Source of the DNA: a virus
Length of the DNA: 64,000 nt
IMG/VR virus record: IMGVR_UViG_3300031521_000039
Location: 1 to 64,000 of that record
Direction: 5' to 3' (one strand)
This document shows positions 17,733-18,276 of this stretch, piece by piece. The translations under genes were made by a program, and so were the position numbers. Position 1 is the first letter of the stretch. Each line of letters opens with the position of its first letter. The notes under the pieces were generated by a model that made no database searches, was not told where the DNA came from, and saw only the letters and a list, made by a program, of their open reading frames with translations.

Positions 17733-17761
17733 TTGACAATGCTGAAAATTAGACATATAAT
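17733..17761 (+). promoter_or_regulatory. sigma-A promoter of the small RNA in TA-like locus 2
   Basis: TTGACA(17733)-17 nt-TATAAT(17756). Confidence 0.8.
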
Positions 17762-17767
17762 AAGAAT

Positions 17768-17848
17768 TGTAAAGAAGTTAAATAATAAAATTCTACAAAG
17801 CATTTTATTTTAGGTAAGACACTGGGTGCAAAACAGTGTCTTATTTTT
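17768..17848 (+). ncRNA. putative type I antitoxin small RNA (locus 2)
   Basis: Consensus promoter; terminator TAAGACACTG-loop-CAGTGTCTTA-TTTTT; 19/21 direct repeat (17792-17812) of the peptide start region (18076-18096). Confidence 0.65.
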
Positions 17849-17990
17849 ATGTTTAAATATAAATAAAGGACTTTCTAATTATATCACTTACCATCTCACA
17901 TGAGTGCAAATCACGTTTTTAAAGTTTTATAATATACTTGTCCTTATATTAATTATCTTGTCATCTGTTTATTAGAATGTATTAATGGGG

Positions 17991-18092
17991 TTACTTACAA
18001 AAGTGTAATGCTATTGTTATAATCCAACCAATGACCGCAATAACAATAGTTTTATCTGAATGATTTTTCAAGAAGTCTACAAAGTTTTTTAT
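17991..18092 (-). CDS. 33-aa hydrophobic peptide, type I toxin-like, probable ATA start ((M)KNFVDFLKNHSDKTIVIAVIGWIITIALHFCK)
   Basis: SD GGAGG 8 nt before ATA; HxDKxxxIA[IV]IG shared with the 722-829 peptide. Confidence 0.6.
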   Translation of the reverse strand: MKNFVDFLKNHSDKTIVIAVIGWIITIALHFCK

Positions 18093-18276
18093 TTTAATCG
18101 CCTCCCTCCCAATAGGATATTTGAGATGGCATTATAATTATAGCATATAATCAACCAAATAATACAATTTTATACAAAAATATTCAAGATTTGGAAAGTA
18201 AATTTTCTAGGTCTTTTATTATGTCTAAATTTATATTTTATCAAATAATAAACTGAAAATAAAGAAGGTGAAATTA

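What the first reader, a model, noticed from the sequence alone, without database searches (positions are those of the whole stretch)
17733..18170. Paralogous TA-like locus 2 with co-varying specificity sequences and an ATA start
Seen: same architecture as locus 1, but each recognition element has changed in concert. The loop is GTGCAAA in both the sRNA terminator (17826-17832) and the 3'-UTR loop (17904-17910). The start-region repeat is a different 19/21 match (17792-17812 vs 18076-18096). The long-range pair is CCATCTCA/TGAGATGG. This co-variation argues for real, mutually insulated RNA-RNA pairing. The repeat covers an ATA codon 8 nt after the SD, supporting non-AUG initiation that would dampen toxin output.
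Basis: partly seen in the sequence, partly recalled or inferred. Interest (0 to 1): 0.7.

Follow-up and report, generated by a model that had tools for sequence, protein, structure and literature searches.

The report
Phage RNA-silenced toxin gene, second copy
An uncultured large phage from peat carries two diverged copies of a small gene pair in which an ~80-base RNA appears to silence a tiny membrane-peptide ("toxin") gene. In six related copies the RNA contact sites have changed together, and this copy most likely starts translation at the rare codon ATA, but nothing has been tested at the bench.

Summary
Observation confirmed. All motifs sit at the stated coordinates. The 19/21 repeat occurs only at its two sites in 64 kb (0.00 expected).

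Locus 2 (17733-18145) is a paralogue of locus 1 (480-872). Both belong to an uncatalogued family with six distinct members in IMG/VR phage contigs.

In all six members, the loop of the sRNA terminator recurs in a 3'-UTR hairpin loop of the convergent peptide mRNA. Complementarity is 7-9 nt for cognate pairs and 2.8 nt on average (maximum 5) for non-cognate pairs. A second sRNA segment always covers the translation start. A 5'-3' helix in the mRNA pairs in 54 of 54 cells.

The architecture resembles par (Fst/RNA I-RNA II) of pAD1. It is not a member: the terminator is not shared and the peptide matches no Fst, Pfam or NCBIfam model.

The ATA start is now better supported. It lies 8 nt after an extended SD. 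The Met1 of a 32-aa homologue (P0005) aligns exactly with it. The ORF has stayed hydrophobic and open in two ATG-less orthologues. AUA starts are documented in Staphylococcus. TTG 18071 remains a rival.

Expression and toxicity are untested. The scan noted this family before on other DNA (e1-5816399, e1-5816405, e1-5997777).

The parts
17733..17761 (+). sRNA (antitoxin) promoter, TTGACA-17-TATAAT
   Evidence: 12/12 consensus match. Conserved in all six family members (alignment A4).
17768..17848 (+). Predicted ~80-nt antitoxin sRNA. The 5' end is inferred from the -10 box and the 3' end from the terminator.
   Evidence: Folds to -18.9 kcal/mol, z -3.9, as a single-stranded 5' part plus a terminator hairpin. 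No RNA data exist.
17772..17778 (+). Conserved sRNA 5' motif AAGAAGT, complementary to ACTTCTT (18070-18076, minus strand), which overlaps the TTG codon
   Evidence: 7-nt perfect complement. The motif is conserved in the sRNAs of A4. Its role is unknown.
17792..17812 (+). sRNA segment complementary to the toxin translation-initiation region
   Evidence: 19/21 direct repeat of 18076-18096, unique in the window, 0.00 expected. Pairs as 10 bp + 9 bp around a 2-nt mismatch.
17812..17848 (+). sRNA intrinsic terminator. Stem arms are about 17812-17824 and 17834-17846, the loop is GGTGCAAAA at 17825-17833, followed by a T-run.
   Evidence: Fold. The loop carries GTGCAAA at 17826-17832.
17855..17947 (-). 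3' structured, terminator-like domain of the toxin mRNA. Outer stem is AAGGAC/GUCCUU followed by a U-rich tail.
   Evidence: RNAalifold consensus on six mRNAs, columns 225-306 of A3.
17898..17916 (-). 3'-UTR hairpin whose loop UUUGCAC (17904-17910) is complementary to the sRNA terminator loop
   Evidence: Cognate loop-loop complementarity is 7 nt here and 7-9 nt in all six members, against a non-cognate mean of 2.8.
17891..17898 (-). 3' element UGAGAUGG that pairs with the extreme 5' end of the mRNA
   Evidence: Part of the MFE fold. The helix is kept in 54/54 cells with compensatory changes.
17991..18092 (-). Toxin ORF read from ATA: 33 aa, IKNFVDFLKNHSDKTIVIAVIGWIITIALHFCK (first residue would be Met), plus the stop codon
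   Evidence: Homologue P0005 aligns from this codon. Selection test.
18069..18071 (-). In-frame TTG, the rival start codon. It would give a 26-aa peptide.
   Evidence: ORF list. In alignment A2 it aligns with the ATG of four other members. It lies 29 nt from the SD.
18076..18096 (-). Target of the sRNA on the mRNA. It spans 4 nt upstream of ATA through 14 nt downstream of it.
18099..18110 (-). Extended Shine-Dalgarno sequence GGGAGGGAGGCG(AU)
   Evidence: It is sequestered by the 5' end in the predicted nascent-RNA fold.
18122..18130 (-). Predicted mRNA 5' end GCCAUCUCA. It acts as an anti-SD and as the partner of the 3' element.
18137..18145 (-). Toxin promoter, extended -10 TGCTATAAT
   Evidence: Read. 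A TGnTATAAT motif is present at the same place in all six loci (sequences).

Best explanation
Locus 2 is an RNA-controlled small-toxin module of the type I toxin-antitoxin kind. Its wiring resembles par of pAD1.

A strong consensus promoter (17733) makes an ~80-nt sRNA. A convergent extended -10 promoter (18145-18137) makes a ~275-nt mRNA for a 33-aa single-helix membrane peptide. The two transcripts do not overlap.

Inferred order of events:
1. The nascent mRNA hides its SD in a 5' hairpin.
2. In the full-length RNA, the same 5' nucleotides clamp to UGAGAUGG in the 3' domain.
3. The sRNA terminator loop (GUGCAAA) kisses the neighbouring 3'-UTR hairpin loop (UUUGCAC).
4. Pairing then extends to a 19/21 duplex that covers the initiation region and blocks ribosomes.

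Translation most likely begins at AUA 18092, 8 nt after an extended SD. That would give a built-in low output.

Locus 1 works the same way with different loop and duplex sequences, so the two copies in one phage should not cross-react at the kissing step.

Shown: the sequence elements, their covariation and the selection on the ORF. Inferred: the transcripts, the order of events, the toxicity and the biological role. The role could be maintenance of a plasmid-like prophage or exclusion of other phages.
For: Architecture and homology.

Six distinct members (L1, L1b, L1c, L2, L2b, L3): with sequences.

Loop-loop identity at homologous hairpins in 6/6 members with six different sequences:
- Cognate 7-9 nt against non-cognate mean 2.8 and maximum 5.
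- Cognate energies -6.5 to -10.6 kcal/mol.

The start-region duplex is present in all six and always lies over the start codon.

The 5'-3' helix pairs in 54/54 cells, with 2 doubly compensated pairs and slid controls of 35-46%.

SD sequestration is predicted in all six.

AUA start:
- Spacing of 8 nt from the SD.
- Met1 of P0005 aligns with the ATA codon, and the N-terminal segment is conserved as protein.
- L2b also has ATA and no ATG.
- Only 1% of random-substitution simulants keep the L2/L2b transmembrane region open and as hydrophobic as observed.
- AUA starts of infC, ccpN and citZ, each with an extended SD, give about 10-30% of AUG output in S. aureus (PMC13009471).
Against: - There are no RNA data. 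No listed sequencing run is RNA, so both transcripts, their ends and the strand of action are predictions.
- Toxicity is untested, and the peptide matches no known toxin family.
- The full-length L2 mRNA fold is no better than shuffles, z -0.25.
- The TTG at 18071 aligns with the ATG of four other members. It would give a 26-aa peptide, the same length as the L1b and L1c peptides.
- The DNA of P0005 could not be fetched, so its start codon (ATG, GTG or TTG) and its RNA elements are unseen.
- L1 sRNA against L2 mRNA gives a computed duplex energy as low as the cognate one, though it is patchy.
Confidence: 0.6

Rival explanations
1. The module is the same, but translation starts at TTG 18071. 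This would give a 26-aa peptide (MKNHSDKTIVIAVIGWIITIALHFCK). The ATA and the seven codons after it would be untranslated leader, kept only because the sRNA pairs there.
For: - MAFFT aligns this TTG with the ATG of L1, L1b, L1c and L3. The L1b and L1c peptides are also 26 aa.
- The TTG is conserved in L2b.
- The conserved sRNA 5' motif AAGAAGU is complementary to ACUUCUU, which overlaps the UUG.
- The DNA alignment suggests that the ATG seen in locus 1 was lost, and that a 7-nt insertion carrying the TTG arose in the L2 lineage.
Against: - There is no SD-like sequence within 5-13 nt of the TTG. The only SD lies 29 nt upstream.
- P0005 begins with Met at the ATA position, and its N-terminal 14 residues are as conserved as the transmembrane segment.
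- L1 (35 aa) and L3 (42 aa) show that longer N-termini are normal in this family.
Confidence: 0.2
2. The toxin gene of locus 2 has lost its start codon and is silent or decaying. What is conserved is the RNA machinery, for example an sRNA kept for another target.
For: Neither L2 nor L2b has an ATG, GTG or well-placed TTG after the SD. Loss of the start codon is a common way for toxin genes to be disarmed (general knowledge).
Against: - After about 19% divergence of the locus, both orthologues keep an open frame. In the transmembrane region, 14 substitutions preserve hydrophobicity, a result reached by 1% of random simulants.
- The SD and its spacing are intact.
- AUA is a working start codon in a Firmicute when paired with an extended SD.
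Confidence: 0.12
3. The repeated short motifs act at the DNA level, as binding sites of a phage regulator or as relics of duplication or gene conversion. They would not be RNA-RNA contacts.
For: All the inter-RNA complementarities are direct repeats on one DNA strand. A 7-mer such as GTGCAAA is not rare on its own.
Against: - Each loop repeat sits in the loop of a hairpin, and the two hairpins have unrelated stems.
- Six lineages changed both copies together, while the flanking sequence stayed conserved.
- In the intramolecular 5'-3' helix, all four non-Watson-Crick pairs are G.U only when read as minus-strand RNA (and the sequences). That is an RNA signature.
Confidence: 0.03

Closest known systems
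par of Enterococcus faecalis plasmid pAD1 (RNA I/Fst and RNA II) and par-like loci of Firmicutes (PMC7472228)
   Same: - Convergent promoters.
- A short sRNA that carries direct-repeat copies of the toxin's initiation region.
- First contact between hairpin loops at the 3' ends.
- A 5' stem-loop that hides the SD, and a helix that sequesters the extreme 5' end.
- A non-AUG start (GUG in fst).
- Paralogues that coexist without cross-protection because their repeats differ.
   Different: - The terminator is not shared and bidirectional. The sRNA terminator and the mRNA 3' hairpin are separate structures about 70 nt apart, only their loops are complementary, and the transcripts do not overlap.
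- There is one repeat (bipartite in locus 2) rather than DRa plus DRb.
- The 5' end pairs with a 3'-UTR element rather than with a nearby upstream helix.
- The peptide has no PXXXG motif and does not match the Fst Pfam model.
- The loci lie in large uncultured phages from peat.
hok/sok of plasmid R1 and aapA1/IsoA1 of Helicobacter pylori (established knowledge, not tested here)
   Same: A long-distance 5'-3' interaction within the toxin mRNA, and metastable 5' structures that prevent premature translation.
   Different: In those systems the antisense RNA is encoded opposite the toxin leader and overlaps it. Activation needs 3' processing. The toxin families are unrelated. No processing signal can be assessed here.
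Type I TA modules of Clostridioides difficile prophages phiCD630-1 and phiCD630-2 (PMC7699646, PMC6563280)
   Same: Phage-borne small hydrophobic toxins with RNA antitoxins in low-GC Firmicutes. Their proposed role is maintenance of the mobile element.
   Different: By my recollection of those papers, which I listed but did not read, those antitoxins are cis-antisense RNAs that overlap the toxin mRNA and the toxins are about 50 aa. No sequence similarity was found here.
AUA-initiated genes of Staphylococcus aureus (infC, ccpN, citZ; PMC13009471)
   Same: An AUA start placed after a strong extended SD, conserved across relatives, lowering output to about 10-30% of AUG.
   Different: Those are housekeeping or regulatory genes with ribosome-profiling proof. 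Here the start is inferred, and the gene is a putative toxin.

Membership tests
par/Fst type I TA family (pAD1 par) | Convergent promoters for the toxin mRNA and the sRNA | tested here: met
   The sRNA promoter is TTGACA-17-TATAAT on the plus strand. TGnTATAAT lies on the minus strand upstream of the peptide gene in all six loci.
par/Fst type I TA family (pAD1 par) | A shared bidirectional intrinsic terminator that gives fully complementary terminator stem-loops | tested here: not met
   The sRNA terminator (17812-17848) and the mRNA 3' hairpin (17898-17916) are separate and have unrelated stems. Only the 7-9-nt loops are complementary.
par/Fst type I TA family (pAD1 par) | Direct repeats transcribed in opposite directions that cover the toxin initiation region | tested here: met
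   The 19/21 repeat 17792-17812 / 18076-18096. Equivalent repeats lie over the start codon in all six members.
par/Fst type I TA family (pAD1 par) | Intramolecular structures that hide the SD (5'-SL) and the extreme 5' end (5'-UH) | tested here: met
   By prediction and covariation only. SD pairing appears in the RNAalifold consensus and in all six nascent-RNA folds. The 5'-end helix pairs in 54/54 cells. The partner of the 5' end lies in the 3' UTR, unlike in par.
par/Fst type I TA family (pAD1 par) | [quoted passage not shown] | tested here: inconclusive
   By inspection of the loops printed, YUNR is present in 4 of 6 mRNA loops: L1 CUAG, L1b CUUG, L2 UUUG, L3 CUGA. This is not clearly above chance, and the review notes that not all par homologues have the motif.
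par/Fst type I TA family (pAD1 par) | An Fst-type peptide: hydrophobic domain with a PXXXG motif, charged C-terminal tail, and a match to the Fst Pfam model | tested here: not met
   No Pfam family at E up to 10 for the L1 and L2 peptides. No NCBIfam family for five peptides. None of the sequences has PXXXG.
Type I toxin-antitoxin systems (general) | A small hydrophobic peptide gene with a strong SD, plus an adjacent RNA complementary to its initiation region | tested here: met
   Peptides of 26-42 aa with one hydrophobic helix. Mean hydropathy of the L2 transmembrane segment is 2.3. Complementarity.
Type I toxin-antitoxin systems (general) | The peptide is toxic when overproduced, and the RNA neutralises it | not testable with these tools

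The most novel reading that the evidence does not exclude
These loci form a previously undescribed family of naturally orthogonal RNA switches in large phages. Specificity would be set by a freely re-programmable 7-9-nt kissing loop plus a start-site duplex, with at least six specificities in nature and two coexisting in one genome. One sub-lineage would use a conserved AUA start as a hard-wired attenuator. That would be the first type I toxin known to me to start at AUA.
Probability: 0.4. Interest if true: 0.7.

Novelty: new variant of a known kind. Interest (0 to 1): 0.6.

Why it matters
If confirmed, this gives a compact, natural set of mutually insulated sRNA-mRNA pairs. In these pairs the recognition code (loop plus start-site duplex) can be read directly from covariation. 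That is useful for understanding how paralogous antisense systems avoid cross-talk, and as parts for orthogonal RNA control.

It would extend par-like regulation to a non-Fst peptide and to non-overlapping transcripts.

It would also add a toxin gene to the very short list of bacterial genes that use AUA to keep output low.

Finally, it points to type I modules as cargo of large, possibly plasmid-like phages in peat.

Tried and rejected
**Searches that found nothing useful**
- blastn of both loci against GenBank phages: no match. tblastn of P0005 against phages: no match.
- My one scan each of genome contigs and metagenome contigs used a pattern that was too AT-rich and degenerate. It returned only chance hits, and nhmmer found no family member among them. 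The host and any chromosomal copies therefore remain unknown.
- Viral scans with GACTTTCTAATTAT and with the degenerate peptide pattern were mostly chance hits. The first gave one new member; the second gave none.
- Rfam: nothing at gathering thresholds. The only sub-threshold hit was ctRNA_pT181, 25.8 bits against 56, E 0.37. I treat this as generic antisense-RNA shape.
- PHROGs: one weak hit, phrog_36198, E 0.023, function unknown.
- ESM Atlas: no usable hit, best score 0.82.
- No tRNA genes in the window, so no phage initiator tRNA variant there.
- The word-index search found only P0002 and P0005. The family is nearly absent from protein collections, probably because the ORFs are so short.

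**Sequencing runs**
- No RNA holder was listed among the runs.
- Contigs laid on the locus showed no variant at 18070-18111.

**Ideas considered and set aside**
- A plus-strand promoter at about 17929-17940 that would make a cis-antisense RNA. The TATAAT there is one arm of a conserved mRNA helix and is degraded in L1b and L1c.
- ATT 18098 as the start. It lies inside the extended SD duplex.

Full report
**What the window is.** The window is the first 64 kb of an 85-kb IMG/VR virus record, estimated 34% complete. It is AT-rich. It has tail genes (Prophage_tail), a choline-binding-repeat protein directly upstream of the locus, and an ANT/KilAC antirepressor next to locus 1. Public runs that hold the locus are peat metagenomes, and all are DNA. 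The promoters, the extended SD sequences and the cell-wall-binding repeats suggest a low-GC Gram-positive host. The host itself was not identified.

**Observation.**
- The 21-mer of 17792-17812 recurs with two mismatches only at 18076-18096, with 0.00 expected by chance.
- GTGCAAA alone is not rare: 8 copies against 7.3 expected. Its two copies nevertheless lie in the loops of two predicted hairpins, the sRNA terminator and a 3'-UTR hairpin of the opposite-strand mRNA.
- Locus 1 (480-872) and locus 2 are homologous, with 66% identity and E 1e-10.
- Both have a perfect TTGACA-17-TATAAT promoter.

**A family, not a pair.** Pattern scans of IMG/VR followed by an nhmmer screen gave four more distinct members:
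- L3: four near-identical contigs, e.g. L007:10340-10754.
- L2b: L018:6706-7097. It is an 81%-identical orthologue of locus 2 in the same gene context, in a 194-kb record.
- L1b: L380:3530-3171.
- L1c: L477, about 1617-1962.

These came, with sequences. All six share the same features:
- the sRNA promoter;
- a conserved sRNA 5' motif (AAAGAAG);
- an intrinsic terminator;
- a conserved 3' domain of the convergent mRNA;
- an extended SD (GGAGGCGAU or GGAGGUGAA);
- a TGnTATAAT extended -10 that places the mRNA 5' end at GCCAUC (ACCAUC in L1b).

This is shown in alignments A3 and A4. Only this window's phage holds two copies within the DNA available.

**Inter-RNA covariation.**

| Member | Motif shared by the sRNA terminator loop and the mRNA 3' hairpin loop |
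|---|---|
| L1 | GTGTCTAG |
| L1b | GTGTCAAG |
| L1c | AATGTCGG |
| L2 | GTGCAAA |
| L2b | ATTGGTAC |
| L3 | GTTTCAG |

- Cognate complementarity is 7-9 nt. Non-cognate complementarity averages 2.8 nt with a maximum of 5.
- Cognate loop-loop energies are -6.5 to -10.6 kcal/mol.
- For the two loci of this phage, both cognate pairs give -7.8, and the cross pairs give -2.7 and -1.3.
- A second sRNA segment is complementary to the initiation region in every member: 12, 9+7, 13, 10+9, 10+7 and 11 nt. In four members it covers the AUG. In L2 and L2b it covers the AUA.
- For the start-region duplex, L2 sRNA on L1 mRNA is at background. L1 sRNA on L2 mRNA gives a patchy multi-loop duplex of -20.2 kcal/mol, reached by about 4% of shuffles. 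Insulation is therefore clear for the kissing step and only partly clear for the second step.

**Structure within the mRNA.**
- The extreme 5' end (CCAUCUCA in L2) pairs with UGAGAUGG, which lies just 3' of the kissing hairpin.
- On six sequences all 54 cells pair, and two pairs show double compensatory changes. Slid controls pair in 35-46% of cells.
- The four non-Watson-Crick cells are G.U only when read as minus-strand RNA. This argues for RNA rather than DNA function.
- RNAalifold and folds of the nascent leader also predict that the SD is sequestered in all six. In L1, L2, L2b and L3 the same 5' nucleotides do this. In L1b and L1c an internal UCUUC-type anti-SD does it.
- The 5'-3' duplex is computed to be more stable than the 5'-SD pairing: -11 to -15 kcal/mol against -5 to -12.
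- The whole-mRNA fold of L2 is not better than shuffles (z -0.25). That of L1 is (z -4.75).

**The start codon.**
- After the SD there is no ATG. ATA 18092 lies 8 nt after GGAGG and is in frame with a 33-aa ORF. TTG 18071 lies 29 nt after the SD and would give 26 aa.
- A plain protein alignment puts the TTG under the ATG of the other members, and the L1b and L1c peptides are 26 aa. TTG is therefore a serious rival.
- A profile search of 1.84 billion proteins found P0005 (32 aa, from a Logan assembly). Its called Met1 aligns exactly with the ATA codon. Its N-terminal segment, MKTFIEFLRKHYDK against (I)KNFVDFLKNHSDK in L2, is as conserved as the transmembrane segment. The stretch between the ATA and the TTG is therefore coding in this sub-lineage, and the family start position is at the ATA.
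- L2b also has ATT-AAA-ATA and no ATG.
- L2 and L2b differ at 14 of 51 nt in the transmembrane region, yet both stay open and equally hydrophobic. Only 1% of random-substitution simulants achieve this. The ORF has therefore been under selection without a canonical, SD-served start.
- Ribosome profiling in S. aureus shows natural AUA starts (infC, ccpN, citZ), each with an extended SD, giving about 10-30% of AUG output (PMC13009471). In E. coli, AUA gives about 1-2% (10.1101/063800).
- My estimates: AUA start about 0.55, TTG about 0.2, silent gene about 0.12.

**Mechanism proposed.** The elements and their covariation are shown. The order of events is inferred.
1. The SD is hidden co-transcriptionally.
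2. The 5'-3' clamp forms in the finished mRNA.
3. The sRNA terminator loop and the adjacent 3' hairpin loop form a kissing complex.
4. Pairing spreads to the initiation region and blocks translation.
5. Weak AUA initiation adds a further brake.

**Comparison with known systems.** The closest is par of pAD1, whose defining features are listed in PMC7472228.
- Shared: convergent promoters, direct repeats over the initiation site, loop-initiated contact, a 5' stem-loop over the SD, sequestration of the 5' end, and a non-AUG start.
- Not shared: the bidirectional shared terminator and the Fst peptide. There is no PXXXG motif and no Pfam, NCBIfam or Rfam match.
- Conclusion: the locus works like par but is not a demonstrable member. 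I class it as a new variant of a known kind.

**Earlier notes of this scan.** Earlier notes describe the same family on other DNA. They include an 'ATA-initiated 32-aa toxin', which is probably the L2b locus, and a further member with loop AGTTCCAGT. I reached the same reading independently.

**Limits.** There are no RNA or protein data. The host is unknown. Six sequences include two close pairs, so there are about five independent loop changes.

Noticed in passing
window:853-859 (minus-strand mRNA nt 14-20 of locus 1): Locus 1 has a third copy of its loop motif (TGTCTAG) in the 5' UTR of the toxin mRNA. The sRNA1 loop could therefore also pair next to the SD. Locus 2 has no such third copy.
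   Followed up: partly
window:17770-17780 and the aligned columns of A4: All six sRNAs carry a conserved 5' motif (T)GTAAAGAAGTT. In L2 and L2b it is complementary to ACUUCUU/AUUUCUU, which overlaps the in-frame UUG. No common partner was found in the other members, so its role (a third pairing site, an RNase site or a chaperone site) is open.
   Followed up: partly
peat-metagenome contig laid on window:17754-17893 (run X3, record 5): A further family member is visible only as a 218-nt contig. Relative to L2, its terminator stem shows two compensatory changes (17820 C>T with 17838 G>A, and 17823 T>C with 17835 A>G), and its loop is different. L3-type and L1b-type sequences are also present in the same peat runs, L3 at high depth.
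   Followed up: no
L477:1651-1732 and 1736-1962 (member L1c): The start-site-binding segment of the L1c sRNA (UAAAGUUUCAUA) has a second perfect 12-nt complement in the 3' UTR of its own mRNA, just upstream of the kissing hairpin.
   Followed up: no
window:26063-26707: An ORF with a borderline match to the Firmicute plasmid replication protein RepL (20.0 bits against a cut-off of 20.3). It is followed by GIY-YIG and T5orf172/MUG113 nuclease-like ORFs. This is a hint that the phage may persist as a plasmid, which would fit an addiction role for the TA-like loci.
   Followed up: partly
window:16798-17709: The gene directly upstream of locus 2 encodes a secreted protein with choline-binding (cell-wall-binding) repeats and a long Ser/Thr/Asn-rich linker. 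The L2b orthologue sits after a similar gene end in the 194-kb record.
   Followed up: partly
SD-to-start spacing in all six members: The ATG-starting members have unusually long SD-to-ATG spacers (10, 12, 13 and 13 nt). Sub-optimal initiation may therefore be a general trait of the family, achieved by spacing in some members and by AUA in L2 and L2b.
   Followed up: partly
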